Below are positions 11,232 to 56,046 of a stretch of 64,000 bases of DNA, piece by piece. Below the pieces are notes generated by a model. The model was not told the origin of the DNA. It was given only the letters and a program-made list of their open reading frames with translations, and ran no database searches. The position numbers and the translations under genes are program-made. The number at the start of each line of letters is the position of its first letter. The first letter of the stretch is position 1. Location: positions 1 to 64,000 of the IMG/VR virus record IMGVR_UViG_3300017991_000003. One strand, given 5' to 3'. This DNA comes from a virus.

Positions 11232-11611
11232 TGGGCGCCAAGGGCAGTGGGCGTACACGCATCGAAGCGGACCTGATGCCTCGGGTCCGTGAGGGCTTTG
11301 CACGTCGTCTCCAAGACATGGGGACGATGAGCAAGCTCGGCGCCATCCTGCTCAAGCCCAACCAAGGGACACAGCGCCGCATCCGGCGTGAGACCCTCAA
11401 TATGGACACGGTCGGTGATCAGAAGCGTTGGCAGATGCTGCACAACGACTCCGAGCGCTATGAGGTCATCACGGCCAAGGACAGCAACACCAACCGCGGT
11501 AACTACTGCCACGTGACCTACATCGAGAAGGGTGACGACCTCCCCCTCGTCAAGAGCGAGAGCGAGCTCCGTTCTGAGGATAAAGAGCGCATCAAAGAGG
11601 AGGGCGGCTGA
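11231..11611 (+). CDS. hypothetical protein
   Basis: 126 aa ORF; ATGA-type overlaps at both ends. Confidence 0.5.
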   Translation: MGAKGSGRTRIEADLMPRVREGFARRLQDMGTMSKLGAILLKPNQGTQRRIRRETLNMDTVGDQKRWQMLHNDSERYEVITAKDSNTNRGNYCHVTYIEKGDDLPLVKSESELRSEDKERIKEEGG

Positions 11612-14600
11612 TGCTCGAAGGGCAGCACTTCCGGCAGTTCAAAGAGGCGCTGACTCGGTCGGAGGGCATCGTCAAGGGTATGTTCCCGATCGAGAGCCCC
11701 ACGAAGCGGCTCGAGGTCACGAACCTGCGTTGGACGAACGTAGGCCCGGACGTGGTCTTCGACGTCGAGAAGCAGAAGCAGGCCAAGCTGAAGGAGCAGT
11801 CGATCAACGCTGTTCTGGTCGGTGACGTCACGCTGCGTGAGCTCGGCTCCAAAGGGAAAGTCCTCGACCAGACCAAGCGCTACCCGATCCTCTCGGTGCC
11901 GCACCTGACGATGAACGCTGGCTACATCGTCAACGGCAAAGAGCAGCAGGTCGTCAACCAGTTCCGTCTGCGCCCTGGCATCTACACCCGGTTCACGGGG
12001 GACGACAACGTCGAGGCGTTCCTCAACACCACGGCGATCGGTACTTACAAGATCCTCCTCGACCGCTCTACCGGTGTGATCCGTATGCGGGTCGGCACGG
12101 CCGCACGCACCCCGATCTACTCGGTTCTGATCGCGGCTGGGCTGACTGATGCCGAGATCAAGACACTGCTGGGGACGGAGCTCTACGCGGAGAACAAGCG
12201 GGCGGCCAAGCCGGATCAGGACATCCCCAAGCTCCTGAAGCGGATGCGCCCGTACCTCAACCAGCCGGCGGAGCTGGGCGAGAAGTCAAAGCTCGTGCGT
12301 CAGTATCTGGAGTCGAAGCCCCTCGACCCCGCCGTGAACAAGGTCACGGTGGGCGAGGGTCTCGACCGCATCGACCGCAATGCCCTCGTGGCGGCGATCA
12401 AGAAGGTCCTCAAGCTGTCTAAGGGTGAGGCAGAGCCCGACGACACGGAGAGCCTTGCCTTCAAGTACATCCTCTCGATCGAGGACTTCGTGCCCGAGCG
12501 GCTCCAGAAGGCGGCCGACGGGCTCAAGTACAAGATCCAGGGCGACATGCGCCGCCGGGATGAGATCCGCTTGATCCTCCCGCCCAACCGCCTGAGCCAG
12601 CCGGTGGAGTCCTTTTTCACCACCTCGGAGTTCACGCGCTACTCGAGCCAGCACAACCCGCTGGACATGGCGGCGATCTCGAGCCTGACCACCACCATGG
12701 GTGATGGCGGGATCTCGAGCTCCCATGCGATCACCGACGAGGTGCGTACGATCCACCCGAGCCACTACGGTCTCCTGGATCCCATGCACACCCCGGAGGG
12801 GTGTTGCAGCGCTGACATGGAGGTCATGACGGATCAAGGCTGGGTTGCGTGGCCCGACGTAGACCGGACCACTCGGTTTGCTTGCCTAGACGCTGATCAA
12901 GGCCTTACCTATCACCGCGCCTCCGAGCTACACGTCTACGACCACGACGGGCCTCTCTACGGGTTCAAGTCGGAGACCCTGGAATACCTGCTGACCCCGA
13001 ATCATCGTCAGTGGGTCCGCCCGATTGAGGATCGATCGACGCGTGGGTATCGGTTTGAGACCGCGGAGGAGATGTACGGTAAACGTCGGCGAGTCCGCAT
13101 CGGCGGGCATTTGGCCTACGAGGGTCAGGCCGTCGATACCTGGCAGCTCCCTGAAATCCCTAAGGGAAGCAACTCGCAGAAGGTTTTCCCGGCCTTTGCT
13201 ATTGAGGACTGGGCTGAGTTCCTTGGCTGGTACCTGAGCGAAGGGAGCAGTCGGGGTTACGTGACTTCGATCACGCAGTATGAGGCTGCGAACCCGGAGA
13301 ATGTGGCTCAGATCGAGGCGCTGTTGACACGCATGCAGGTCGCGTGGAGCCGCAGCTCCAGGAGCTTCTCGATCCCAGGTAAGCAGCTAGTCAGCTACCT
13401 GCGTCAGTTCGGCCACTCCGATACCAAGTACATCCCTAAAGAGGCGTTCGACTTCCCGGCGGCGGCGCGTGAGGCCATGCTCGAGGCGCTAATGCTCGGA
13501 GACGGTCGCAAGGGCAAGGGCCGATGCTCTTGCTACTGCACTACATCTGAGCAGCTCGCCAAGGACGTGCAGCGCTTGGCCTTCGGCCTAGGGGTGTCGA
13601 GCAAAATCACCTTTGAGCCGGATACGCGGGAGGAGCACTACCGCGGGTGCTGGATCGTCCATCTCCACGCGCTCACTGAGCGTCAGGTGCTGCCACAAAT
13701 GCGCGCAGCAGGTAACGGCCAGTTCATCGAGGAATACCAAGGCAAGGTCTACTGCGCCACGGTTCCTGGTGGCCTGCTGTACATCCGTCGAGCCGGCAAG
13801 AGCGGTTTCTGGTCCGGCAATAGCAAGGTGGGCGTGACCGGTCACTTGGCCCTGGGCGCGCGCAAGAAGGGGCAGACCCTCTACGTCCCGGTCTATGACG
13901 CCAAGACGGGCAAGCGCGTGGAGAAGTCGGTTCAAGACCTGGACCAGGCCACCATCGCGTTCCCTGATCAGTACGACAACCTGCCCGACAAGCCGGGCGC
14001 GTCGGTCAAGGGCAAGCCCACGACCAAGCTGAAGAAGGTCAAGGCCCGTAGTCGTAACGAGTTCACGGAGGTGAGTCCGTCGGCTGTGGACTACATCTTC
14101 GTCAGCTCCGACAGCTTCTTCAGCTCGACCACGGCTGCGATTCCCTTCCTCCCCAACAACGACGCCAACCGCGTCCTGATGGGTGACAAGCATATCGAGC
14201 AGTCGGTGAACCTTGAGGACCCCGACGCGCCGATGGTCCAGCACCGCATCCGAGGCCGGGGCTATGAGGAGATGTTCGGGGAGCGCCTAGCCCCCCGGGC
14301 TATCGACCCCAAGACCGGCAAGCCCGTCGGCGGAGAGGTCCTCGAGGTCACCAAGACGCATATCACCATCCGGCCGGATGGCGGCGGCCGTCGACGCATC
14401 AAGGTCCCGATCCACGACCACTACCCGCTCAACAGCCGGACGTTCCTGCACGACGAGCCGGTGGTGAAGAAGGGTGACAAGGTCAAGCCTGGCCAGATCC
14501 TGGCCCGCAACAACTTCACCAAGGACGGAGACCTGGCGGTCGGCAAGAACCTCCGAGTCGCCTACACCGCGTACAAGGGCTACAACTTCGAGGACGGCAT

Positions 14601-17600
14601 CGTCATCTCGGAAGGGGCGGCTAAGAAGTTGACCTCGGTGCACAAGTACGAGGCCCGCGTTGAGAAGGGCAAGGGCATCACGGTCGGTGCAGACGCCTAC
14701 GCTGCCGCCTACCCCTCGGAGCTGGAGCATATCCGCGACCGTGCCCGGCGCTACGACGCTGTGGGTGTTATCAAGAAGGGCCAGCAGGTCGTCAAGGGCG
14801 ATGTCCTGATCCCCGCCATCCAGGAGGTCGAGGCGCATCCCGAGTACGACTACAAGCGTCTGCACCGCAGCGCCGGTCTCCGGCACATGGATATCAGCGA
14901 GACCTGGAACCACGACTTCCCTGGTGAGGTCGTAGACGTGGTCAAGACTCGGACATTCGTGAAGGTCGTGGTCAAGAGCAAGGAACCGATGCAGGTCGGT
15001 GACAAGCTGAGCTCGCGCCACGGCGCCAAGGGCATCGTCGTCAAGATCATCCCTGATGAGGAGATGTACAAGGACGAGGAAGGTGCGACGATCGATATCC
15101 TGCTCAACCCGGCGGGGGTGCCTGGTCGCGTCAACACGGGTCAGATGCTCGAAGCCGCGGCCGGCAAGCTGGCCCGTAAGACGGGCAAGAAGTACTACAC
15201 CGACAACTTCAACGAGAAGGGCAGCACGATCAAGAACCTCCGCAAGGAACTAGCGGGGGCCGGGATCTCCGATGAGGAGACGATCGTCGACCCGAAGACG
15301 GGGCACAAGCTCGAACGCGTCCTCGTCGGCGACACGCACATCTACAAACTGACCCACCAGGTCACGGGCAAGATGAAGGCCCGCGCCTCTGTGGGTGAGC
15401 CCTACTCGGTGGACGAGCAGCCCGTGAAGGGATCAGGGTCAGGTGCCCAGCGCATCGGCATCCTCGACACCTTCAGCCTGCTTTCGGGCGACGCCACGGC
15501 GTTCCTCGAGGATGCCTTCGGCCTCAAGAGCCAGAAGAACGACGAGTACTGGCGTGCCCTCCAGACTGGGCAAACACTGCCGCCTCCGAAGACCCCGTTC
15601 ATCGAGGAGAAGTTCGTGGCCATGCTCATTGGCGCGGGCATCGACCTCAAACAGAAAGGCAGTCGCATCGACGCGGGGCCGCTGACGGATGCTGAGGTTC
15701 TCTCAATGTCCAATGGCGCCATCGAGCGCCCGGTGGCGGTCAAGGCATCGAACCTCAAACCCGAGCGTGGCGGGCTCTTCGATCCCGGCAAGACCGGCGG
15801 TCCTGGCGGCAACTACTGGAACCATATCGATCTAGCCTCTGAGGTCGTGCACCCGCTGATGACCGACGCTGCGGCGTCCGTGGGCGGGTTCAAGACCAAG
15901 AAGGAGATGGACCAGATCATCCAGGGCCTGCTCGCGGTCACCGAGGAGGGCGAGGTCGTGGAGGCAGGCACCGCGGGTGCCGTGGCCGGTGGCTCGGGAG
16001 TGAAGCGCCGACTCGCTACGATCAACGTTCCGAGGGCCATCAAAGAGACCGAGTTGGTGGCGGCGACCGCCAAGGGCGCCAAGCTGGACAAGGCCCACAA
16101 ACGGCTGCGCTACCTGCGCTCGCTTCAAGCCAGTGGCCACTCGGCTGTTGATGCCTACATCAACAAGACCCTCCCGGTCATCCCCGCCAAGTTCCGTCAG
16201 ATCGCTCCGATGCCCGACGGCAGCCTGAGTGTGGCTGACGCCAACCACGGCTACCGAGAGGTCCTTCTCATCAACGAGAAGATCAAGCAGCTGAAGGCTC
16301 TCGGAGTCGACGAGCAGAACCTGCGAGCACTCAACAAGGCTCTGGCGGACGCTACGGCCGGCCTCGTAGGCACGGCGCCTCCGATCAGCCGAGGCAAGGT
16401 CTTCCGCGGCTTCGTCAGTCAGATCCACGGCCCGACGCCTAAGTCGGGTCTGGCGCAGTCGAAGCTCATGGGACGCAACCAAGACCTGAGCGGCCGGTCG
16501 ACTGTGATCCCCAACCCCAAGCTGGGGATGGACGAGGTCGGTATCCCGGCTGAGATCGCCTACAAGATCTACAAGCCCTTCGTCATCAAGCGTCTCGTCA
16601 CCGCCGGCCACAAGCCGCTAGATGCCCGCTCCATGGTCGAGCAGGGCCACCCGGCCGCCCGTCGTGCGCTCGAGGTGGAGGCTGAAGACCGCCCGGTGCT
16701 GATGAACCGCGCGCCCTCACTGCACAAGTTCAACATCCAGGCCCTCAAGCCCCGGGTGATCGACGGTAAGGCGGTCGAGGTCAACCCGCTCATCGTGAGC
16801 GGCTACAACATGGACTTCGACGGGGATACGGCCGGTCTACACGTTCCGGTCTCTGAAGAGGCCCGGCGCGAGGCTCGTGAGAAGCTGCTCCCGTCGCGCA
16901 ACCTGTTCAGCCCTCGGGAGGAGTTCGTGGTCCATGCCCCGACCAAGGAGACGATCCTCGGGGTGTACCTGATGACTACGCCCAAGGGACTTGCCTCCAA
17001 GTCGTTCTCCTCCGACCAGGAGATGGTCAAGGCATACCAGGCCAAGGAGATCAAGGTCAACGAAGCGGTGAAGGTCCAAGGCGCTGTGACCTGCGCCGGT
17101 CAGGCCATCTTCAACACGGCGCTTCCTATGGATCTGCGCGTGGGTCGTACGTCGGTGACCGGTCCGCGTTTGAGCCAGCTCCTGGTTCGCATCGGTCGGC
17201 AGTTGGGCCCCGACCGGGCCGCTCAAGTGATCTCGAAGATCAAGGACCTAGGCAACCACTACGTGACCGAGGTCGGGTTCTCCGTGAGTCTCCGGGACCT
17301 TGAGCTTGATACGAGCAAGCGGGATCAGATCGTCAACAAGCTCAAACGAGACGCCAAGACCAAGGGGTTCGATGAGGCGGCTGGCGAGGCGCTCGAAGAC
17401 ATCGCAGCGCTGCTGGCGTCGGCAGAGGATAACCGGTTCGTGGAGGCTGGCATCACATCCGGAGCCCTAGGCTCCAAAGGCATCCACCGGATGCTGGCGA
17501 GCACCGTGGCAGTGACGGATCACAAGGGCAAGACGGTCCCGATCCCGGTCGAGAAGTCCTATGCCGAGGGCCACGATCTAGGTACCTACTTGGGTACGAC

Positions 17601-18765
17601 CCCCGGCGCCCGGAAGGGCTTGATCGACAAAGGCCTGAGCGTGGCGGATACGGGCTACTTCAGCCGCATGCTCGTCAACAGCTCGATCGAGAACCAGGTG
17701 ACCGTCGCGGACTGCGGAACCAAGTCGGGCCAGGATCTGCCGCTCAACTCCCAGGAGCTCGCGCACCGCTACGGCGCCGAGGGCCGCTACCGCAACGTCT
17801 TGATCACCTCGGACATCGCCCGCCGCCTGCGCTCCCTAGGCCAGAAAACGGTCAAGGTCCGTAGCCCTCTGACTTGTCAGGCGCAGAAGGGCGTCTGTCA
17901 GAAGTGCTTCGGCCTACTCGAGGATGGCAAACCGCCTCGCATCGGTTATCACGTCGGTGCTCTGGCCGGCCAGACCCTGGGTGAGGTGGCTACCCAGCTG
18001 ACCCTGCGCAGCTTCCACACTGGTGGCGCTGTTGGTGGGCCCGACCTGGGTTTTGAGCGCATCCGTCAGATCATGGAGATGCCTCAAAGCATCCAAGGCA
18101 AAGCCATCCTGAGCGAGGCCACCGGCCAGGTGACGCGCATCGACACAGCGCCGGCGGGCGGTAGTTACGTCTACGTCGGCTCCGAGAAGCACTTCATCCC
18201 CAAGGAGCTGGGGGTAGCGGTGAGTCGAGGCCAGCGCGTGAAGGCGGGGGATCAGCTGAGCAAGTCGGGTGTGATCAAGCCTCAGGAGCTGCTAGATACG
18301 ACAGGGGACATCAATCGTGTCCGTACCCATCTGATCAACGAGCTGGATGCTAACTACAGAGCGGCCGGCAAGAAGGTCAACCGCCGGATCTTCGAGACGG
18401 TGGTCAAGCCTCTTACTGACCGTGCGACTGTGACGGACGTCGGAGACGCCGGCCGCCATTTCCCGGTACATGCCGGGGAGGTCATGCCTGTCAACCAGAT
18501 CGAGGAGATGAACCGCAAGCTCAAGCAGCGCCGTCTTCGCCCGATCCAGTTCGAGCCTATGATCATGGGTATCAAGCAGGCCCCGTTCCAGAGCGAGGAC
18601 TTCGTGGGAACGCTCACCCATGAGAAGCTCAAGCGGACCCTCACCGAGGCCCCTAGCCTGGGTAAAGCCACGGACCTTGTGCGCGGCCACCCGATGGCCC
18701 GCCTGGGTCTCACCAACCTCCGATCCATCGAAGCCATCAAACGACCTCAAGGGGTGAAGCGATGA
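11611..18765 (+). CDS. fused beta-beta' multisubunit DNA-dependent RNA polymerase, intein-containing
   Basis: Beta motifs: SQHNPLD...HPSHYG...HTPEG, IPFLPNNDANRVLMG, GDKLSSRHGAKGIVV (14998..15033), VNTGQMLE, GAQRIGILDTFSLL. Beta' motifs in the same frame: NHIDLASEVVHPL, NMDFDGD (about 16807..16827), PSLHKFNIQA. Beta' N-terminal Zn-ribbon appears absent. Confidence 0.85.
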   Translation: MLEGQHFRQFKEALTRSEGIVKGMFPIESPTKRLEVTNLRWTNVGPDVVFDVEKQKQAKLKEQSINAVLVGDVTLRELGSKGKVLDQTKRYPILSVPHLTMNAGYIVNGKEQQVVNQFRLRPGIYTRFTGDDNVEAFLNTTAIGTYKILLDRSTGVIRMRVGTAARTPIYSVLIAAGLTDAEIKTLLGTELYAENKRAAKPDQDIPKLLKRMRPYLNQPAELGEKSKLVRQYLESKPLDPAVNKVTVGEGLDRIDRNALVAAIKKVLKLSKGEAEPDDTESLAFKYILSIEDFVPERLQKAADGLKYKIQGDMRRRDEIRLILPPNRLSQPVESFFTTSEFTRYSSQHNPLDMAAISSLTTTMGDGGISSSHAITDEVRTIHPSHYGLLDPMHTPEGCCSADMEVMTDQGWVAWPDVDRTTRFACLDADQGLTYHRASELHVYDHDGPLYGFKSETLEYLLTPNHRQWVRPIEDRSTRGYRFETAEEMYGKRRRVRIGGHLAYEGQAVDTWQLPEIPKGSNSQKVFPAFAIEDWAEFLGWYLSEGSSRGYVTSITQYEAANPENVAQIEALLTRMQVAWSRSSRSFSIPGKQLVSYLRQFGHSDTKYIPKEAFDFPAAAREAMLEALMLGDGRKGKGRCSCYCTTSEQLAKDVQRLAFGLGVSSKITFEPDTREEHYRGCWIVHLHALTERQVLPQMRAAGNGQFIEEYQGKVYCATVPGGLLYIRRAGKSGFWSGNSKVGVTGHLALGARKKGQTLYVPVYDAKTGKRVEKSVQDLDQATIAFPDQYDNLPDKPGASVKGKPTTKLKKVKARSRNEFTEVSPSAVDYIFVSSDSFFSSTTAAIPFLPNNDANRVLMGDKHIEQSVNLEDPDAPMVQHRIRGRGYEEMFGERLAPRAIDPKTGKPVGGEVLEVTKTHITIRPDGGGRRRIKVPIHDHYPLNSRTFLHDEPVVKKGDKVKPGQILARNNFTKDGDLAVGKNLRVAYTAYKGYNFEDGIVISEGAAKKLTSVHKYEARVEKGKGITVGADAYAAAYPSELEHIRDRARRYDAVGVIKKGQQVVKGDVLIPAIQEVEAHPEYDYKRLHRSAGLRHMDISETWNHDFPGEVVDVVKTRTFVKVVVKSKEPMQVGDKLSSRHGAKGIVVKIIPDEEMYKDEEGATIDILLNPAGVPGRVNTGQMLEAAAGKLARKTGKKYYTDNFNEKGSTIKNLRKELAGAGISDEETIVDPKTGHKLERVLVGDTHIYKLTHQVTGKMKARASVGEPYSVDEQPVKGSGSGAQRIGILDTFSLLSGDATAFLEDAFGLKSQKNDEYWRALQTGQTLPPPKTPFIEEKFVAMLIGAGIDLKQKGSRIDAGPLTDAEVLSMSNGAIERPVAVKASNLKPERGGLFDPGKTGGPGGNYWNHIDLASEVVHPLMTDAAASVGGFKTKKEMDQIIQGLLAVTEEGEVVEAGTAGAVAGGSGVKRRLATINVPRAIKETELVAATAKGAKLDKAHKRLRYLRSLQASGHSAVDAYINKTLPVIPAKFRQIAPMPDGSLSVADANHGYREVLLINEKIKQLKALGVDEQNLRALNKALADATAGLVGTAPPISRGKVFRGFVSQIHGPTPKSGLAQSKLMGRNQDLSGRSTVIPNPKLGMDEVGIPAEIAYKIYKPFVIKRLVTAGHKPLDARSMVEQGHPAARRALEVEAEDRPVLMNRAPSLHKFNIQALKPRVIDGKAVEVNPLIVSGYNMDFDGDTAGLHVPVSEEARREAREKLLPSRNLFSPREEFVVHAPTKETILGVYLMTTPKGLASKSFSSDQEMVKAYQAKEIKVNEAVKVQGAVTCAGQAIFNTALPMDLRVGRTSVTGPRLSQLLVRIGRQLGPDRAAQVISKIKDLGNHYVTEVGFSVSLRDLELDTSKRDQIVNKLKRDAKTKGFDEAAGEALEDIAALLASAEDNRFVEAGITSGALGSKGIHRMLASTVAVTDHKGKTVPIPVEKSYAEGHDLGTYLGTTPGARKGLIDKGLSVADTGYFSRMLVNSSIENQVTVADCGTKSGQDLPLNSQELAHRYGAEGRYRNVLITSDIARRLRSLGQKTVKVRSPLTCQAQKGVCQKCFGLLEDGKPPRIGYHVGALAGQTLGEVATQLTLRSFHTGGAVGGPDLGFERIRQIMEMPQSIQGKAILSEATGQVTRIDTAPAGGSYVYVGSEKHFIPKELGVAVSRGQRVKAGDQLSKSGVIKPQELLDTTGDINRVRTHLINELDANYRAAGKKVNRRIFETVVKPLTDRATVTDVGDAGRHFPVHAGEVMPVNQIEEMNRKLKQRRLRPIQFEPMIMGIKQAPFQSEDFVGTLTHEKLKRTLTEAPSLGKATDLVRGHPMARLGLTNLRSIEAIKRPQGVKR
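12802..13821 (+). mobile_element. intein with LAGLIDADG homing-endonuclease domain inserted after the conserved TPEG of the beta module
   Basis: Begins CCSADMEVMTDQG (block A-like), TPNH (block B-like), two LAGLIDADG-like helices (LGWYLSEGS, EALMLGDGRKG), ends ...FWSGN followed by Ser; flanks (HTPEG / SKVGV...IPFLPNNDANR) restore beta-subunit colinearity. Boundaries within a few codons. Confidence 0.65.
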
Positions 18766-46680: not shown

Positions 46681-47208
46681 TCAGTCTTCGCTAGCAGCTT
46701 GTTGTCGACGGACCTCCGCAGATGCAGCGTAGCAGAGCACCATCGCATCCGAGATGTCCTCGTGGGCTTTGGGCACACCATCAGGATAGCCCAAATCGGC
46801 CAAGTCATCGGAAAACCGTTCATTCATTCGAGCCCGCGCCCCGTCCTTATCCTTGGCCTTGACGCGACTGCGGGCCGTCTTAGCTGTGATCAGGACCGGC
46901 TCGTAACCCGCTCGGGCGACCTCCGACATCACGGCCCCGATAGCCATGGCGACCTTGCCCATGGATGATAGGTTCCTGGCGTGCTTGTTGAACTTCAAGT
47001 CCTCGATGATCACGTGATCCGGGTTCCACTTGGCGAGCACCTCCCGCACCCGCTTCCCTAGCTGCCCGATCCGAGCAGCGAAGGTGTCCTTGGCGCGCAA
47101 CCGAAGGAGCTCGACATGCAGCATCTCCCACTCATCGCTCTCATCCATCCGCATCAAGGCCACCCCTGTTTTGAGGCTGCCGCAGTCGAATCCCATTACA
47201 ACGGTCAT
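46681..47208 (-). CDS. RuvC-like Holliday junction resolvase
   Basis: GFDCGSLKTGVAL (cf. RuvC GIDPGSRVTGYGV), HVIIEDL, DAMVLCYA acidic catalytic positions. Confidence 0.6.
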   Translation of the reverse strand: MTVVMGFDCGSLKTGVALMRMDESDEWEMLHVELLRLRAKDTFAARIGQLGKRVREVLAKWNPDHVIIEDLKFNKHARNLSSMGKVAMAIGAVMSEVARAGYEPVLITAKTARSRVKAKDKDGARARMNERFSDDLADLGYPDGVPKAHEDISDAMVLCYAASAEVRRQQAASED

Positions 47209-47668: not shown

Positions 47669-49387
47669 TCAGATGATCGCGTTCCAGTCGACGATGACAC
47701 CGGCCTCGTCGAGCAAGTCGTAGAACCAGGTCACGACGTGGACGTAAGCACCTAGCGGGTCCTTGGGGTGGCGCTTCTGGGCCTCCTCGCGCTTGGCACC
47801 GAACTCGTCGGTCTTGGCCAGCTTGTGCTTCTTGCAGGTCTGGCCGAGCAGGCTGAGCAGGGCACGCTGCTGAGTGGAGTTGAGCTTCGAGTAGTCAGGG
47901 CGCACGTTCTCGTCGAACGGCTCCTCTTCTTCCTCTTCTTCCTCTTCCTCCTCCTCGCCAGGCTCCTCCTCGTCCTCCTCCTCAAGATCGTCGAGCTCCT
48001 CATCGCTGGGCTCTTCTTCGTCGAGGTCCTCCTCGTCGAGCTCCTCGTCTTCTTCCTCGTCAGGCTCCTCCTCGTCGAGGTCCTCGTCTTCTTCCTCCTC
48101 CTCGTCGAGGTCCTCCTCGTCGTCTAGCTCCTCCTCGAGCTCTTCTTCTTCGAGCTCCTCGAGCTCCTCGAGCTCCTCCTCTTCTTCCTCCACATCAGGG
48201 GCGGAGGCAGCAACCGGAGCCTCCCGCTTGCCGATCATGTCGTCAGGCGGGATAGGGGTGTGAAGAGGGCCGGAGACAGCGATAGGGAACGCGCGGATCG
48301 TGTCCTCGGGAACGCCGAGCGTATCCGCGGCCTCCGCGAGGCTGGTGGCCAGCACGTAGCGCAGCGTGTCGGAGCCGTCCTCGTCTTGGCTGTAGGCCTG
48401 GTACACGGCATGGACCGACGGGAGCCCGATATGCTCTTGCATGTAGTTGGGGTCACCATCGGGCGCGACGAAGACAGCGCTGACGCCCGGGCAGCAACGC
48501 TCAGCCGCTTCTTTGAGGCGCATCAGGCCCACGGCCCGCCACGCATCGTCAGCGCCTTCGGTCAGGTGCGAGGACGCGGCCACGAGGGCCTCGATCATCA
48601 CATCACCGTCGGTCGGCCAGCGGTCAGAGTCGTCAGTACCGGACGCGGCCCGCTTGAGCAGCTCCTGGTAGGAGTAGTAGAGGTCCAGCTGCGGCTGGGT
48701 GAGTCGGAGCTTGAGCTCGCGGTACTTGGCCTCGCCGGGCTCGAGCCCCTCGTCCTCCTCGTCGTTCATGTCCTGGATCGCCTGCTGCACCCGGCGCTTG
48801 AGGTCTGCGGAGCGCAGCGCGTGCGGGTGACCCAGGGGCTCGCAGAAGGGCAGCCACTCGGAGATGTTGTCCTCGTGGATAGCGCCGGCGCGGACGCCCG
48901 GGCTCAGCTCGACAAGCCGGTCCCAGACCACGTGGCGCAGGACGGCGGGGTTCAGGCTCAGCGACAGCAGCATGGCCCACTGGCCTGCTAGCTGGTTGGC
49001 CTTGGCCGGGTTCATGTTGAGCCGCATGTCCGCGACCTGCTCGAAGCTCTCGGCGGCCGGCAGATCACCGACAGGAGCCGCGACCTCGATCCACGCACCT
49101 TCTCGCAGGTTGAACAGGTGGCAGGCCAGCTCAGCAGTCTGAGCGCCTCGGGCCTGCTGGAGCTCGACACACCGGTCCAGACGCTTGATCGCCGGGAGCT
49201 TGCCGGTGCCGGCGAAGGGGGCTCGCTGCCCCTGTAGGAGGTTCTGGGTTGCGTACTCGGCGCGCTCTTGAGCCTCTTCGAGGGCCACCAGTGCGGCGTT
49301 CTCGGAGCCCGGCTGCGGTTGGGTAGTCGGCGCAGCAGCCGCTTTCTTCTTCGTGGCCTTCTTGGCGGCCTTCTTTTTCTTAGCCAT
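47669..49387 (-). CDS. protein with Lys-rich N-terminal tail and ~100-residue poly-acidic (E/D/L) C-terminal tract
   Basis: ATG at 49387 (MAKKKKAAKKATKKKAAAA); acidic tract encoded at about 47910..48195. Confidence 0.6.
   Translation of the reverse strand: MAKKKKAAKKATKKKAAAAPTTQPQPGSENAALVALEEAQERAEYATQNLLQGQRAPFAGTGKLPAIKRLDRCVELQQARGAQTAELACHLFNLREGAWIEVAAPVGDLPAAESFEQVADMRLNMNPAKANQLAGQWAMLLSLSLNPAVLRHVVWDRLVELSPGVRAGAIHEDNISEWLPFCEPLGHPHALRSADLKRRVQQAIQDMNDEEDEGLEPGEAKYRELKLRLTQPQLDLYYSYQELLKRAASGTDDSDRWPTDGDVMIEALVAASSHLTEGADDAWRAVGLMRLKEAAERCCPGVSAVFVAPDGDPNYMQEHIGLPSVHAVYQAYSQDEDGSDTLRYVLATSLAEAADTLGVPEDTIRAFPIAVSGPLHTPIPPDDMIGKREAPVAASAPDVEEEEEELEELEELEEEELEEELDDEEDLDEEEEEDEDLDEEEPDEEEDEELDEEDLDEEEPSDEELDDLEEEDEEEPGEEEEEEEEEEEEPFDENVRPDYSKLNSTQQRALLSLLGQTCKKHKLAKTDEFGAKREEAQKRHPKDPLGAYVHVVTWFYDLLDEAGVIVDWNAII
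47910..48195. repeat. GAG/CTC-type low-complexity coding repeat (poly-Glu/Asp/Leu)
   Basis: Repeated CCTCGTCGAGGTCCTC units on + strand. Confidence 0.7.
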
Positions 49388-50667: not shown

Positions 50668-51395
50668 GCGTAGTGTCTCTGTAGGTGGATGAAGGCGAGG
50701 GCTGCGGCTTCGGCAGCGTCGTACTCTTTGTCGATGTACAACCAGTTCTTGAAGCGGTTGTTGAAGGCTTGTCGATCCGGGTTTGACATGGCCCGCGCCA
50801 TCTCGGCCTCAAGCCTCGGGTCCCGAGCGGTCGGATCTAGGTTGTCGCGGCCAGGGCCTAGTAGCCCCTCCAAAGCTATGTAGAGGTGCCTCACGTGCCG
50901 GTGCTGCCCTAGGTCTGTGAAGTGGTCCTCAGGGCCTTGGTGCCCGTGAGATCCGGTCATCACGATCACCTGATCGAAGGACTCGTCTACCAAGGATCTG
51001 TAGGCCGTCCAGATGGCGCGAACCATGGTAGGGCCTCCTTTCATGAACCCTTGATAGATCAACGTGGTCAAGATTGATCGGTCGCGCAGAGCAACAGGGA
51101 TCTCACCTCCAGCTGATACAAACCCGGCCCACTCCTGCACCTGCACCGCTGTCTGTGCCATCCCTGCGATGAACAGAGCGGCGCTGGCCTGAGTACAAGG
51201 GATCTGCGACTCACCCGTACCCCCCGTCGCCTGGCCGTGGAGCACTAGCTCCCGGAGGCCTTGGATGCTATCCCCCGGTTCCCGGAAGACTCGAGCCTTC
51301 CACCCCCCGACGTTGTTGTTGATGTCGTCGCAGAGGGATTGAGCTAGGGTGCTCTTCCCGCTGCCGTCAGGGCCTTCGAGGATGATCTGGTGCAT
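50652..51395 (-). CDS. dTMP/dNMP kinase-like P-loop kinase
   Basis: N-terminal ILEGPDGSGKSTLA matches thymidylate-kinase-type P-loop. Confidence 0.45.
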   Translation of the reverse strand: MHQIILEGPDGSGKSTLAQSLCDDINNNVGGWKARVFREPGDSIQGLRELVLHGQATGGTGESQIPCTQASAALFIAGMAQTAVQVQEWAGFVSAGGEIPVALRDRSILTTLIYQGFMKGGPTMVRAIWTAYRSLVDESFDQVIVMTGSHGHQGPEDHFTDLGQHRHVRHLYIALEGLLGPGRDNLDPTARDPRLEAEMARAMSNPDRQAFNNRFKNWLYIDKEYDAAEAAALAFIHLQRHYAWNKS

Positions 51396-51952
51396 CAGGT
51401 GGTCTGGGCGATTACGCGTTGGAGAAGGGAGCCATGAGTCACGACCAGCTCGTGCTTGGCGGTCAGGGGATCCAGCTTGGCCTTGAAGGTCAAGCCAAGG
51501 GACCCGAGCATCCCAGTGCGCTGTCGCTCCAAGTCCTCTTGGATGACCTCTACGGGGATGCGGGTCTCCTTGGTGGTGATGTCGAAGTACCGAAACGGCC
51601 CGTCAACGAACTGCTCGAGCTCCTCAGTCATGGGCATGATCAGGAGATCAGCGGGGAAACCCTCAAACACGCGATACGTGTTGTGGTCCGTGAAGTGGTA
51701 GGCGAGGGCGATGTTCGGGCGCGCTAGCTTGCGCGCGTCTTGCACCGCCTTCTCCCACCACCGAGGCTGGAACCGGAAGTCGGTCCCTGTTCTCGACTTG
51801 GCCTCGACAAACCACCCGTAAGGGGTGCCGAGGTCTCCTCGGAAGAACGAGCCGCAGCCAGATCCGGGGACCCGCTGCAAGCCGGTCTCTCGCATCAGGC
51901 GAAGCTCGTGCGCGTCACCCGTCCTCTTGTTCGAGGCCGGCCTCGAGCGCAT
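51395..51952 (-). CDS. hypothetical protein, possible PD-(D/E)xK-type nuclease
   Basis: GDLGTPYGWFVEAKSR motif; start uncertain (51952 or 51895; track ORF to 52075 overlaps RecA-like gene). Confidence 0.3.
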   Translation of the reverse strand: MRSRPASNKRTGDAHELRLMRETGLQRVPGSGCGSFFRGDLGTPYGWFVEAKSRTGTDFRFQPRWWEKAVQDARKLARPNIALAYHFTDHNTYRVFEGFPADLLIMPMTEELEQFVDGPFRYFDITTKETRIPVEVIQEDLERQRTGMLGSLGLTFKAKLDPLTAKHELVVTHGSLLQRVIAQTT

Positions 51953-53525
51953 CGAGGGGGTCACCTCCCTCTGCTTCTTCTGAATCTTCGGCAGCCCCAG
52001 CGGCTGGCTGATGTCCTTTGAGTCGGTCATGGGCTTCGTGAATGAGATCCTGGAGAGGGTCGTCGAAAGGCCCATAGAGATGGGCCTCTGCGTCGAGGTG
52101 GCCTCGGAAGGTCCGCGGCATGATTGCGGCAGCCAGCGGATAGCGCAGGCGATAACCGATGTCGGGCCGGCTCAGGAAGGCCTTGATGTCCGCGATCTTG
52201 GTGAAGGTGCGGCCGAGGATCTCATACCCCCGCGAGGTCTTCTTGAACCACCTGTCATCAGGCGGCAGCTCCCAAGCGCCCTCAGATAGGGCTTTCAGGA
52301 GCTCAAACACGCGCGCACCCTCGTCGGTCTCGCCGGCTTCGTAGTGGACACGGTCAAACAGACGATCCTTGAGGAACAGCCGAGCCTGGGCGCTAGCGTT
52401 GGTGCCGCCCCCGGACGCCTTGTCCTTCTTCATCGTCATCGTCATCTCCGCCATGGCGGCGGGCTCACGGTAGCCGCCGTCCCACGGGTTGTAGCGGGTG
52501 CGGATCTCCATGTTCTGCATGAGCGCGTACTTGAGGGCGTTACCGCCCGACGCGATCTTGGAGGGACCGCCGTAGCCCCCGGGGCCCGACTGGATGTTGG
52601 CGCGCCACTGGTTGGTCTGGATGAACGTGGGCATCACGCCCGACTGGTTCCAGGCCTCGTTTTGCGCGCTGATCAGCTTCGGGTACAGGCGGGACAGCTC
52701 ACGAGCCCGGGACGCGGTCTGCTTACGACCCGCCAGGTCCTCGTCAATCGCAGCCATGGCCACACTGTCGAGGATGATCAGATCGGCAGCGCCGTTCTTG
52801 ATCAGGTGGGAAGAGAGGATCTCGACCTGGTTCAAGGACGTGATGCGGGCCACAGCTACTGTCGAATCCGGGCTGATGAGTAGGCCCTCTTCGACCTCCT
52901 CGTACTCAGCCATCGGATCGCTCATGTCCACACGATCCGCGATCTTGAACCCCCAGGACTGTGCCCATAGCGGGTCGAAGTCACCCTCGACATCGATGAA
53001 GAGGACGGTCGACACATCGTTGGCACCGCAGCCGCAGCGGATCACGTTATCCCGCTCACCCAGGTCATCATGGAAGGTGAGGATCGGAGTCATGCAGCGC
53101 CGGCAAGTGCGCTGGAAGGAGCCGGCCAGTAGGTAGCACATGAGCGACTTGCCCACATGCTCCGGGCCAATGATCTGCGTCCGGGTGCCGATGGCCATGC
53201 GGATGTTCATGTCCATCTCGACCAGTCCCGTGAACAGGAGCCGGCGGCGGAACTCAGCTGCGGCCTGCGTCGCTCGCCAAGAACCCGTGGGCTGCTTGTT
53301 GAGCTCGACTGTCGCAGACTTCATCCCGTCGCTGAACCGAGCGCTGGTGCGTGTGTCGCGCGGGCTCTTCACTCCGGCCGTCAGCGCCCGCTTCGGAGCG
53401 TCGTCCTTGGCTGCGGCCTTCTTGGTCCGCTTCTTGGCCTTCTTCTTGGTCGCCTTCTTCTTGGTGGCCTTCTTGGTCACCTTCTTTGTGGCTTTTTTGG
53501 CGACCTTCTTCTTCTTGGCCGCCAT
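51915..53525 (-). CDS. RecA/UvsX-family recombinase with Lys-rich N-tail and Cys-cluster insertion
   Basis: KKKKVAKKATKK tail; Walker A GPEHVGKS; LIILDSVAMAAIDEDL (cf. RecA IVVDSVAAL); CRRC...CGC; acidic C-terminus. Confidence 0.5.
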   Translation of the reverse strand: MAAKKKKVAKKATKKVTKKATKKKATKKKAKKRTKKAAAKDDAPKRALTAGVKSPRDTRTSARFSDGMKSATVELNKQPTGSWRATQAAAEFRRRLLFTGLVEMDMNIRMAIGTRTQIIGPEHVGKSLMCYLLAGSFQRTCRRCMTPILTFHDDLGERDNVIRCGCGANDVSTVLFIDVEGDFDPLWAQSWGFKIADRVDMSDPMAEYEEVEEGLLISPDSTVAVARITSLNQVEILSSHLIKNGAADLIILDSVAMAAIDEDLAGRKQTASRARELSRLYPKLISAQNEAWNQSGVMPTFIQTNQWRANIQSGPGGYGGPSKIASGGNALKYALMQNMEIRTRYNPWDGGYREPAAMAEMTMTMKKDKASGGGTNASAQARLFLKDRLFDRVHYEAGETDEGARVFELLKALSEGAWELPPDDRWFKKTSRGYEILGRTFTKIADIKAFLSRPDIGYRLRYPLAAAIMPRTFRGHLDAEAHLYGPFDDPLQDLIHEAHDRLKGHQPAAGAAEDSEEAEGGDPLDALEAGLEQEDG

Positions 53526-53953
53526 CAGGCTCCTTCGTCAGCCCCCTCAGTGAGCTGCTCGGTGTGGAACAGCGGGTCCTTGCCGACCGACTGTAGGACG
53601 CGGTTGAAGATGTCGCGGTTGGCCACGACGCAGCGGTGCTGGAACTCCTCGACGATGCCCTCCATGTTCTCGGCAATCTCTTCCCGGGAAGCAGGCACGT
53701 TCACGGTGACGTGAACCTCATGGCTCGAGTAGGCGCCGTAGACCTCGGAGATGCGGGCGTGGTGGCCGACCGAGATCGATCCGACATTAGCGGGGTTGGT
53801 CATGATGTGGCGGGTGTCGATGATGTGGGTGTTGCTATAGCGGAGGACGTACTTGGTGCGTCCTCGCGGGATGGCTCGAATCGTCACCTCGAGGGTGACC
53901 GGGCGGGCTGTGATCTCACAGCCCTGGATAGTCGATGACATGGCAGCGGGCAT
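53525..53953 (-). CDS. hypothetical protein (142 aa)
   Basis: ATGA-type coupling with neighbours. Confidence 0.5.
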   Translation of the reverse strand: MPAAMSSTIQGCEITARPVTLEVTIRAIPRGRTKYVLRYSNTHIIDTRHIMTNPANVGSISVGHHARISEVYGAYSSHEVHVTVNVPASREEIAENMEGIVEEFQHRCVVANRDIFNRVLQSVGKDPLFHTEQLTEGADEGA

Positions 53954-55804: not shown

Positions 55805-56046
55805 GGCTCACAGCCCTCCTCGTCGGCCAGGAGACGCGCTAGCGCCTCGTCCTTGGTGTAATCCTTTGGCCACTCTCTGACTTCCACTGTAGGGTTGCGG
55901 AGACCGGCGCTAAGGCTTTGAAGATCCTTCCCCAGCCGGCGGAGGACCCCATCGAAGAGGTCCTCCTCTGGCTCGAGGAAGATGCGGGGAAGTTCGATGT
56001 AGGAGTCGAACCCCTCTGCACAGACTCGGACGTCAATACCCCTCAC
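55792..56046 (-). CDS. hypothetical protein (84 aa)
   Basis: ORF overlapping neighbours by a few nt. Confidence 0.4.
   Translation of the reverse strand: MRGIDVRVCAEGFDSYIELPRIFLEPEEDLFDGVLRRLGKDLQSLSAGLRNPTVEVREWPKDYTKDEALARLLADEEGCEPWRL

What the first reader, a model, noticed from the sequence alone, without database searches (positions are those of the whole stretch)
51915..53525. RecA-family recombinase with Lys-rich tail and Cys-cluster insertion
Walker A GPEHVGKS and a RecA-like core motif, but with an N-terminal KKATKK-repeat tail like the neighbouring acidic-tract protein, a CRRC...CGC insertion and an acidic C-terminus. This is an atypical architecture for a phage recombinase.
Basis: partly seen in the sequence, partly recalled or inferred. 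Interest (0 to 1): 0.5.

Follow-up and report, generated by a model that had tools for sequence, protein, structure and literature searches.

The report
Phage RecA with zinc-ribbon insertion
This gene encodes the DNA strand-exchange enzyme (RecA type) of a large uncultured phage; it has a complete catalytic core plus a four-cysteine, probably zinc-binding insertion shared by more than a hundred uncultured relatives, and a lysine-rich DNA-grabbing tail, so it is a new variant of a familiar enzyme.

Summary
ORF 51915..53525 (-) encodes 536 aa with Walker A GPEHVGKS (120-127), a 40-residue Lys-rich N-terminus, C141-R-R-C144 ... C164-G-C166, and an acidic C-terminus.

The Cys cluster is a roughly 34-residue insertion between the P-loop helix and strand beta2. 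It is not private to this gene: 117 of 135 aligned sequences (the top exhaustive-HMMER hits plus E. coli RecA) carry all four Cys, and the genomic contexts sampled are phage replication modules. I found it in no cultured phage and in no paper.

The Lys tail is real, with a Shine-Dalgarno site, stop/start overlap and conservation in all four close homologues. Basic N-termini recur in the ~500-aa "long" subfamily.

The acidic C-tail is a normal RecA feature.

Verdict: a genuine RecA-type recombinase and a new variant of a known kind. Interest is moderate. The roles of the zinc ribbon and the tail are inferred, not shown.

The parts
51915..53525 (-). Whole CDS, 536 aa plus stop: RecA-type recombinase
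53530..53535 (-). Shine-Dalgarno AAGGAG, 4 nt upstream of the ATG. The upstream ORF's TGA (53525-53527) overlaps the ATG (53523-53525).
   Evidence: Read directly from the sequence. Supports translation of the Lys tail.
53406..53525 (-). Residues 1-40: Lys-rich (KKxT)n tail, 22 K/R, predicted disordered
   Evidence: Imperfect 12-nt tandem repeat. Low pLDDT. Conserved in P0002, P0003 and, upstream of the mis-called start, in P0004.
53226..53405 (-). Residues 41-100: linker, then the equivalents of the RecA N-terminal helix and strand beta0 (about 62-100), the polymerisation elements
53145..53168 (-). Residues 120-127: Walker A GPEHVGKS (K126 = E. coli K72)
   Evidence: The Lys is invariant in 135/135 sequences.
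53010..53111 (-). Residues 139-172: Cys4 insertion (C141, C144, C164, C166) between the P-loop helix and beta2; predicted zinc-ribbon-like pair of hairpins
   Evidence: Invariant Cys. All four Cys in 117/135 rows. pLDDT 96-98 with short strands. Absent from E. coli RecA.
52974..53009 (-). Residues 173-184: strand beta2 TVLFIDVEGDFD with the catalytic Glu E180 (= E. coli E96)
   Evidence: Glu present in 133/135.
52866..52940 (-). Residues 196-220: ~25-residue beta-hairpin insertion just before strand beta3, specific to the ~500-aa 'long' subfamily
   Evidence: Glu-to-Walker-B spacing is 72 here against 47 in E. coli RecA and in the short Zn-RecAs. Strands at 209-212 and 215-217 in the model.
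52764..52781 (-). Residues 249-254: Walker B strand LIILDS (D253 = E. coli D144)
52542..52610 (-). Residues 306-328: Q306 (= Q194), R308 (= R196), loop L2 and G327-G328 of the GGNALKY motif (the motif runs on to Y333)
52419..52430 (-). Residues 366-369: KKDK, where K367 and K369 = E. coli K248 and K250 (trans-acting ATPase lysines)
52119..52328 (-). Residues 400-469: RecA-type C-terminal domain with an ~11-residue insert
51918..52118 (-). Residues 470-536: helical C-terminal extension ending in a disordered acidic tail (about 505-536)
   Evidence: (pLDDT 54-62 at the end).

Best explanation
This is the RecA-type strand-exchange ATPase of a large (about 175-193 kb), 63% GC, uncultured tailed phage. 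It is a functional analogue of T4 UvsX but structurally closer to bacterial RecA.

Inferred from full conservation of the RecA machinery: it polymerises head to tail on single-stranded DNA through its N-terminal helix and strand, binds DNA through loops L1 and L2, and hydrolyses ATP at subunit interfaces. This would serve recombination-dependent replication and repair together with the neighbouring helicases, Cas4-like exonuclease and junction resolvases.

Three additions decorate this core:
1. A ~34-residue Cys4 module, most likely a structural zinc ribbon, is inserted between the P-loop helix and strand beta2. Together with a 25-residue hairpin inserted before the adjacent strand beta3, it should sit on the face of the core away from ATP and DNA. 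In E. coli RecA that face receives the neighbouring subunit's N-terminal helix, so the likeliest role is to buttress the filament interface or offer an outer-surface docking site.
2. A disordered polylysine N-terminal tail enlarges the positively charged N-terminal patch that RecA already uses to capture DNA.
3. An acidic C-terminal tail acts as the usual autoinhibitory flap and may pair with the basic tail.

Shown here: fold, motifs, conservation and genomic context. Inferred: zinc binding, the position of the insertions in the filament, and the role of the tails.
For: Family:
- Pfam RecA scores 32.2 bits against a cut-off of 27; PHROG 97 UvsX-like matches at E 2.4e-18 over residues 31-415.
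- Mycobacterial RecA is the best PDB sequence hit.
- The AF2 model has pLDDT 91.6 and pTM 0.89.

Catalytic residues: K126, E180, D253, R275, N305/Q306, R308, G327/G328, Y333 and K367/K369 align to E. coli K72, E96, D144, R169, N193/Q194, R196, G211/G212, F217 and K248/K250. All but Y333/F217 were counted across the family and are conserved there.

Cys4:
- Invariant down to 37% identity.
- All four present in 117/135 aligned sequences, and CxxC...CxC found in 105/131 by pattern search.
- Modelled at pLDDT 96-98 as short hairpins.

Tail:
- The Shine-Dalgarno site and stop/start overlap support translation.
- The tail is conserved in all four close homologues.
- N-terminal net charge of +8 or more occurs in 12/33 long-subfamily members, 4/90 short and 0/11 without zinc.
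- In E. coli RecA, N-terminal basic residues on the outer filament surface capture DNA, E18K is a gain-of-function change, and K6 of the N-terminal helix salt-bridges to D139 of the next subunit (PMC2672939).

Context: XPB-like SF2 helicase, UvrD-like helicase, Cas4-like exonuclease, two junction-resolvase-like genes and thymidylate kinase surround the gene. Part or all of this order recurs in loci L002, L006, L007 and L008. Terminase and head protease show that this is a phage.
Against: - There is no biochemical evidence.
- The score against NCBI's RecA equivalog model is far below its cut-off (29.6 against 325 bits), so this is not an orthologue of cellular RecA.
- The second metal knuckle is CxC rather than the canonical CxxC (94 of 105).
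- Zinc cannot be told apart from iron (rubredoxin-like) or from no metal by computation.
- I had no access to model coordinates or a multimer prediction. The placement of the insertions near the subunit interface therefore rests on strand topology and recalled RecA structure.
- A Lys tail could serve localisation, packaging or partner binding instead of DNA capture.
- No SSB or mediator gene was recognised nearby, so the pathway is incomplete.
Confidence: 0.75

Rival explanations
1. It is a RadA/Sms-like or DnaB-like ring helicase (branch migration or replication) rather than a filament-forming recombinase. On this reading the cysteine cluster plays the part of the RadA/Sms zinc finger.
Against: - The L2-flanking GGNALKY motif and the K248/K250 equivalents are RecA signatures.
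- The zinc module is internal, not N-terminal.
- Neither Pfam nor NCBIfam reports a Lon-like or helicase domain.
- No KNRFG motif is present in the sequence.
Confidence: 0.05
2. It is a Sak4/RadB-like annealing protein: a RecA remote homologue that anneals single strands with its SSB but does not perform ATP-driven strand invasion.
For: Many phage 'RecA-like' genes are of this kind (PMC5928155, listed).
Confidence: 0.03
3. The enzyme is a RecA-type recombinase, but the Lys-rich tail is not a DNA-capture device. Instead it is an address or interaction tag shared with the neighbouring Lys-tail/acidic-tract protein, for example for co-localisation on the nucleoid or phage DNA, for loading into virions, or for binding the neighbour's polyacidic tract, which would act as a chaperone or inhibitor.
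For: - Two genes about 4 kb apart start with nearly the same peptide, MA(A)KKKK.AKKATKK, and the encoding DNA is identical at 34 of 40 nt.
- These are the only two such N-termini in the window.
- The neighbour carries a ~100-residue poly-Asp/Glu tract, an obvious electrostatic partner.
Against: - The nucleotide similarity lies in low-complexity AAG-rich sequence and is weak evidence.
- In the syntenic loci the neighbour's basic start and acidic tract vary or are absent (L002, L006, L007).
- Basic termini recur in many divergent Zn-RecAs, which points to a property of the recombinase itself.
- Added N-terminal positive charge is known to enhance E. coli RecA D-loop formation (PMC2672939).
Confidence: 0.15
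4. The four cysteines do not bind zinc. They could form an iron site (rubredoxin-like or an Fe-S cluster) or disulfides that act as a redox switch on filament assembly.
For: Four invariant Cys in two short knuckles also fit rubredoxin-type Fe(Cys)4 sites. The second knuckle is an unusual CxC.
Against: The module is small, and its predicted beta-hairpin knuckles match a zinc ribbon. Its length between the knuckles varies from 11 to 95 residues first to last Cys, as expected for a structural metal staple. Nothing in the context suggests redox chemistry.
Confidence: 0.1

Closest known systems
Bacterial RecA (E. coli RecA, PDB 3cmu; S. pneumoniae RecA, 8amd)
   Different: - Only 21% identity, and far below the NCBI equivalog cut-off.
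- Carries a Cys4 insertion between the P-loop helix and beta2.
- Has a 25-residue hairpin before beta3 and an 11-residue insert in the C-terminal domain.
- Has a ~65-residue C-terminal extension and a 40-residue polylysine N-terminal tail.
- Encoded by a phage.
T4 UvsX and UvsX-like phage recombinases (PHROG 97; PDB 3io5, 9gbg)
   Same: It is a phage-encoded RecA-family recombinase in a replication/recombination module with helicases. It matches PHROG 97 at E 2.4e-18.
RecA of Streptococcus phage Dp-1 (gp15) and MS1
   Same: An insertion at exactly the same site, between the P-loop helix and beta2. The loop therefore tolerates insertions in phage RecAs.
   Different: The Dp-1 insertion is a ~45-residue charged, probably helical segment with no cysteines.
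RadA/Sms
   Same: A RecA-superfamily ATPase combined with a four-cysteine metal finger.
Lys/Ala-rich tails of nucleoid proteins (histone H1, actinobacterial HU/Hlp, Chlamydia Hc1), recalled from memory
   Same: Low-complexity KK(A/T)-type repeats in a disordered terminal tail, known to give sequence-independent DNA binding.
   Different: Here the tail is fused to the N-terminus of a recombinase. No homology is claimed or testable. The host, and therefore its nucleoid proteins, could not be identified.

Membership tests
RecA family (Pfam PF00154; bacterial-type RecA fold) | Sequence score above the curated family threshold | tested here: met
   PF00154 scores 32.2 bits against a gathering cut-off of 27, E 9.6e-8.
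RecA family (Pfam PF00154; bacterial-type RecA fold) | RecA-fold ATPase core with Walker A Lys, catalytic Glu after beta2 and Walker B Asp | tested here: met
   K126, E180 and D253 align to K72, E96 and D144. They are conserved in 135, 133 and 133 of 135 family rows.
RecA family (Pfam PF00154; bacterial-type RecA fold) | DNA-binding loops L1 and L2 with the Q194 switch, R196 and the GGNALKF motif | tested here: met
   N305-Q306, R308, G327-G328 and GGNALKY are present.
RecA family (Pfam PF00154; bacterial-type RecA fold) | Trans-acting lysines K248 and K250 at the subunit interface | tested here: met
   K367 and K369, within KKDK.
RecA family (Pfam PF00154; bacterial-type RecA fold) | N-terminal polymerisation helix/strand and RecA-type C-terminal domain | tested here: met
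RecA family (Pfam PF00154; bacterial-type RecA fold) | ATP-dependent filament formation and strand exchange | not testable with these tools
   Needs purified protein.
Cellular RecA orthologue (NCBIfam TIGR02012 equivalog) | Score above the equivalog cut-off | tested here: not met
   29.6 bits against a cut-off of 325.3. It is a divergent phage paralogue, not cellular RecA.
UvsX-like phage recombinases (PHROG 97) | Significant match to the PHROG profile | tested here: met
   E 2.4e-18 over residues 31-415. PHROG 97 is a broad RecA/UvsX grouping. The fold is closer to RecA than to T4 UvsX.
RadA/Sms | N-terminal C4 zinc finger, KNRFG motif and Lon-like C-terminal domain | tested here: not met
Sak4/RadB-type core-only RecA homologues | Short (~200-250 aa) core-only architecture and closest fold match to Sak4/RadB | tested here: not met
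Zinc ribbon (structural Cys4 metal site) | Two Cys knuckles on beta-hairpins, conserved across the family | tested here: met
   CxxC...CxC; all four Cys in 117/135 rows. Short strands at pLDDT 96-98. The second knuckle is CxC, which is non-canonical.
Zinc ribbon (structural Cys4 metal site) | Stoichiometric zinc binding | not testable with these tools
   Needs metal analysis of purified protein.

The most novel reading that the evidence does not exclude
The Cys4 module, the hairpin and the polybasic tail together define an undescribed class of phage recombinases. The idea is that the zinc module sits at the protomer-protomer interface, clamping the neighbour's N-terminal helix, while the tail captures DNA. 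The enzyme would then nucleate on SSB-coated or naked DNA without a UvsY or RecFOR-type mediator. The neighbouring Lys-tail/polyacidic protein could act as its electrostatic chaperone or inhibitor. If so, this would be a self-loading, metal-dependent RecA with possible use in isothermal amplification.
Probability: 0.15. Interest if true: 0.6.

Novelty: new variant of a known kind. Interest (0 to 1): 0.4.

Why it matters
RecA/UvsX enzymes are among the best-studied proteins in biology, and phage versions are the working part of recombinase-polymerase amplification.

A large clade of phage RecAs carries a conserved metal-binding module inside the ATPase core, often together with a polybasic terminus. 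It numbers at least a hundred clusters at the 50% identity level. It appears to have gone unremarked: these proteins are simply labelled "RecA" in databases, and four full-text searches found no description.

If the module lies at the filament interface or recruits partners, it would be a new way of regulating filament assembly. If the tail boosts DNA capture, these enzymes may load without mediators.

For this window itself, the practical result is a confident annotation: the phage's strand-exchange protein, inside a recombination-dependent replication module.

Tried and rejected
- **First structure prediction.** The 5-sequence alignment gave pLDDT 45 and was unusable. It was replaced by a 134-sequence alignment.
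- **Word-indexed protein search.** It returned only 4-5 relatives, even after trimming the Lys tail. The exhaustive HMMER search was needed to see the family.
- **INPHARED phages.**
  - The full-length protein gave no tblastn hit at 1e-5.
  - Probes with four different queries found only RecAs without the Cys cluster.
  - I checked this by translating the RecAs of Moorella phage MTATph1, Dp-1 and Vibrio phage Ares1.
- **IMG/VR scan.** It found only the same phage.
- **GTDB genome scan.** It found no relative, so there is no prophage and no host clue.
- **Host inference from the terminase.** The best cultured relatives are about 27-30% identical and infect mostly Bacillota hosts (Geobacillus, Staphylococcus, Bacillus), which is uninformative. 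The comparison with host nucleoid proteins could therefore not be made.
- **AFDB fold search.** The library was unavailable.
- **Literature.** Four full-text searches for a zinc or cysteine insertion in phage RecA found nothing relevant.
- **Search for an SSB, UvsY or RecO-like mediator.** PHROGs and Pfam recognised none in the 43-64 kb module.
- **Rfam on 43-64 kb.** No hits.
- **Repeats in the ~1 kb stretch without a called gene (56046-57025).** Nothing found.
- **Extending beyond the window.** A look-up on an edge gene returned only a short unrelated-sample contig of small unknown ORFs.
- **Readings rejected.** RadA/Sms-like helicase, Sak4-like annealase and a wrong start codon for the tail. 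Reasons are given under the rival explanations and in the observation check.
Full report
**1. Observation**

The window holds an ATG-initiated ORF at 51915..53525 on the minus strand, 536 aa. Its start is well supported. A perfect AAGGAG lies 4 nt upstream (53530-53535), the TGA of the upstream ORF overlaps the ATG (TGATG), and only four codons separate the ATG from the preceding in-frame stop.

The protein has:
- Walker A GPEHVGKS at residues 120-127.
- C141-R-R-C144 and C164-G-C166.
- 22 K/R in its first 40 residues, arranged as (KKxT)n and encoded by an imperfect 12-nt tandem repeat.
- 13 D/E in its last 40 residues.

The neighbouring gene starts MAKKKKAAKKATKKK and contains a ~100-residue acidic tract. 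Its start is taken at 49387, as in the public gene call.

In a 63% GC window, only four K-rich segments occur in any six-frame ORF of at least 60 aa, and two of them are these N-termini.

**2. What it is**

Sequence evidence:
- Pfam RecA scores above its gathering threshold (32.2 against 27 bits).
- PHROG 97, "UvsX-like recombinase", matches residues 31-415 at E 2.4e-18.
- The best PDB sequence matches are mycobacterial RecA.

Structure evidence:
- A first prediction from five sequences was useless (pLDDT 45).
- A 134-sequence alignment built from the exhaustive search gave a confident model of residues 68-536 (pLDDT 91.6, pTM 0.89).
- These are well ahead of T4 UvsX (19.0), Rad51/Dmc1 (about 18.5), RadA/Sms (17.7), the DnaB/gp4/Twinkle helicases (14-17), KaiC (about 17), RadB (16.0) and Sak4 (11.2).
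- Because 312 aligned residues exceed the ~240-residue core, the RecA N-terminal and C-terminal domains are included.

Residue mapping. The mapping is K126=K72, E180=E96, D253=D144, R275=R169, N305/Q306=N193/Q194, R308=R196, G327/G328=G211/G212, Y333=F217 and K367/K369=K248/K250. All but Y333/F217 were counted across 135 aligned sequences and are conserved there.

The protein therefore has everything RecA needs for ATP-dependent filament formation and strand exchange. It is not a cellular RecA orthologue: the NCBI equivalog model scores 29.6 bits against a cut-off of 325.

**3. What differs from RecA**

Relative to E. coli RecA, the differences are:
- A Lys-rich tail (residues 1-40) and linker.
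- A ~34-residue Cys4 insertion (139-172) between the P-loop helix and strand beta2.
- A ~25-residue beta-hairpin (196-220) immediately before strand beta3.
- An ~11-residue insert in the C-terminal domain.
- A ~65-residue C-terminal extension that ends in a disordered acidic tail.

The acidic tail is not an anomaly. E. coli RecA ends in one too (visible), and it is known to be autoinhibitory (established knowledge).

**4. The Cys cluster is a clade hallmark**

The word-indexed search found only three relatives at 60-64% identity and one at 37%. All of them have the four Cys.

The exhaustive HMMER search of 1.84 billion cluster representatives found 604 hits at E of 1e-3 or better, 90 at 1e-10 or better and 24 at 1e-30 or better. 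Among the best 150:
- 105 of the 131 with a canonical Walker A show CxxC-(x)n-CxC right after the P-loop helix (consensus Q-R-x-C-R-x-C ... C-x-C-G). The first-to-last Cys span runs from 11 to 95 residues, median 25.
- In the 135-row alignment (134 family sequences plus E. coli RecA), 117 rows have Cys in all four columns.

The module is modelled at pLDDT 96-98 as short hairpins, which is what a zinc ribbon looks like. The non-canonical CxC second knuckle is the rule (94 of 105).

Two subfamilies emerge. A "short" one (90 sequences, about 400 aa) has only the Cys4 insertion and otherwise canonical RecA spacing. A "long" one (33 sequences, about 500 aa) includes this gene and adds the hairpin and the C-terminal extension.

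The contexts I sampled are phage replication modules. PolA, an SF2 helicase and a small ORF precede the RecA in L002, L006 and L008. RuvC and a sigma factor follow it in L002, L006 and L007. The short-subfamily locus L009 has RNase H and thymidylate kinase nearby. The best BFVD matches are "RecA/RadA recombinase [uncultured Caudovirales phage]".

I could not find the module in cultured phages:
- Five tblastn probes of INPHARED with four different queries returned only RecAs without it.
- Translating the RecAs of Moorella phage MTATph1, Streptococcus phage Dp-1 and Vibrio phage Ares1 confirmed this.
- Dp-1 is instructive because it has an unrelated, cysteine-free insertion at the very same site.

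Four literature searches found no description of a zinc or cysteine insertion in RecA.

**5. The Lys tail**

It is conserved in P0002 and P0003. It is also conserved in P0004 once the mis-called start is corrected: the in-frame upstream sequence reads MATPKKKAAKKAAKKSTKR. The 37%-identical P0005 has only MVKKPK.

Across the family, an N-terminal 30-residue net charge of +8 or more occurs in 12 of 33 long-subfamily members, 4 of 90 short ones and none of 11 without the Cys module. Several others instead carry a basic C-terminus. The tail is thus a recurrent, length-variable appendage of this kind of recombinase.

There is a mechanistic precedent. In E. coli RecA, the N-terminal basic residues K8, K19, K23 and R33 line the outer surface of the filament and capture ssDNA and donor dsDNA. 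The charge-adding change E18K raises D-loop yield to about 187% (PMC2672939). A polylysine extension of that same terminus is most simply read as an enlarged DNA-capture arm.

The neighbour's similar start is noteworthy: 34 of 40 nt are identical, but in low-complexity sequence. It is inconsistent among the syntenic loci.

**6. Where the insertions probably sit (inference)**

Both insertions precede adjacent parallel strands (beta2 and beta3). They therefore emerge on the same face of the sheet, opposite the ATP site and the L1/L2 loops. In E. coli RecA that face includes D139, which salt-bridges to K6 of the neighbouring subunit's N-terminal helix (PMC2672939).

I therefore expect the Cys4 module and the hairpin to form a small extra lobe at or beside the polymerisation interface on the filament exterior. 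That is close to where the next protomer's Lys tail begins.

I could not test this.

**7. Context**

The window is part of a 175-193 kb metagenomic contig and is also in IMG/VR.

It carries a large terminase subunit and a head protease. Very large ORFs that I take to be structural lie on the plus strand. A minus-strand replication/recombination block carries the following genes:
- a UvrD-like helicase;
- an XPB-like SF2 helicase;
- a small ORF translationally coupled to the recombinase;
- the recombinase itself;
- a junction-resolvase-like protein;
- a thymidylate-kinase-like protein;
- a Cas4-like exonuclease;
- the Lys-tail/acidic protein;
- RuvC;
- a sigma factor.

No SSB or mediator was recognisable.

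The terminase is at most 30% identical to any cultured phage's, and GTDB genomes hold no relative of the recombinase. The host is therefore unknown.

**8. Verdict**

It is a bacterial-RecA-like paralogue of a novel large phage. It belongs to a sizeable, apparently undescribed clade defined by a Cys4, probably zinc-binding, insertion in the ATPase core, and within it to a long subfamily that often carries a polybasic N-terminus.

I rate it a new variant of a known kind, with interest 0.4. Identity and anatomy are shown. Metal binding, the position of the insertions in the filament and the function of the tails are inferred and await the experiments listed under next steps.

Noticed in passing
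window 47669-49387 (-): A conserved protein of unknown function starts with MAKKKKAAKKATKKK and contains a ~100-residue almost pure Asp/Glu tract before a conserved C-terminal domain. Homologues sit at the same position in L002, L006 and L007, but the basic start and the acidic tract are variable or absent there. Pfam, PHROGs, NCBIfam and the PDB gave no significant match.
   Followed up: partly
proteins P0075, P0150 (also the long hits P0065, P0086, P0091, P0112; 736-880 aa): Some Zn-RecA homologues are about twice the normal length. In P0075 and P0150 the sequence breaks at a Cys one residue after the catalytic Glu (..IEG|C....AEH|C..). This looks like an intein inserted in the ATPase core, as is known for mycobacterial RecA.
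   Followed up: no
L006 8680-8870 (JGI 3300008255 contig): The public gene call for P0004 starts at an internal Met. The in-frame upstream sequence encodes MATPKKKAAKKAAKKSTKR..., so the deposited protein lacks its Lys-rich tail because of a mis-called start.
   Followed up: yes
L004 2336-3496 (Streptococcus phage Dp-1 gp15): The Dp-1 RecA has a ~45-residue charged, cysteine-free insertion at the same loop (between the P-loop helix and beta2) where the metagenomic clade has its Cys4 module. This loop seems to be an insertion hot spot in phage RecAs.
   Followed up: partly
window 56046-57025: About 1 kb between the UvrD-like helicase and the next gene has no gene in the public calls. A 443-aa minus-strand ORF (56043-57374) spans it but overlaps the helicase and was not picked by my GC3-based gene filter. 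No repeats or Rfam hits were found.
   Followed up: partly
window 53525-53953 (-): A 142-aa ORF with no family match is translationally coupled to the recombinase (TGATG overlap). A small ORF occupies the same position in L002, L006, L007 and L008. It is a candidate partner or mediator of the recombinase.
   Followed up: partly
window 1054-6228 (+) and 11611-18765 (+): Two very large plus-strand ORFs (1724 aa and 2384 aa) lie in what I take to be the structural module. Most of the mid-sized ORFs around them that I scanned have no PHROG match, which underlines how distant this phage is from cultured ones.
   Followed up: no
window 51395-52075 (-): The ORF downstream of the recombinase overlaps its 3' end by 38 nt in the public gene call (185 aa). 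It matches Holliday-junction-resolvase PHROGs 2002 and 244 and, weakly, a PD-(D/E)XK family. Together with RuvC at 46681-47208, this gives the module two junction-resolvase-like genes.
   Followed up: partly
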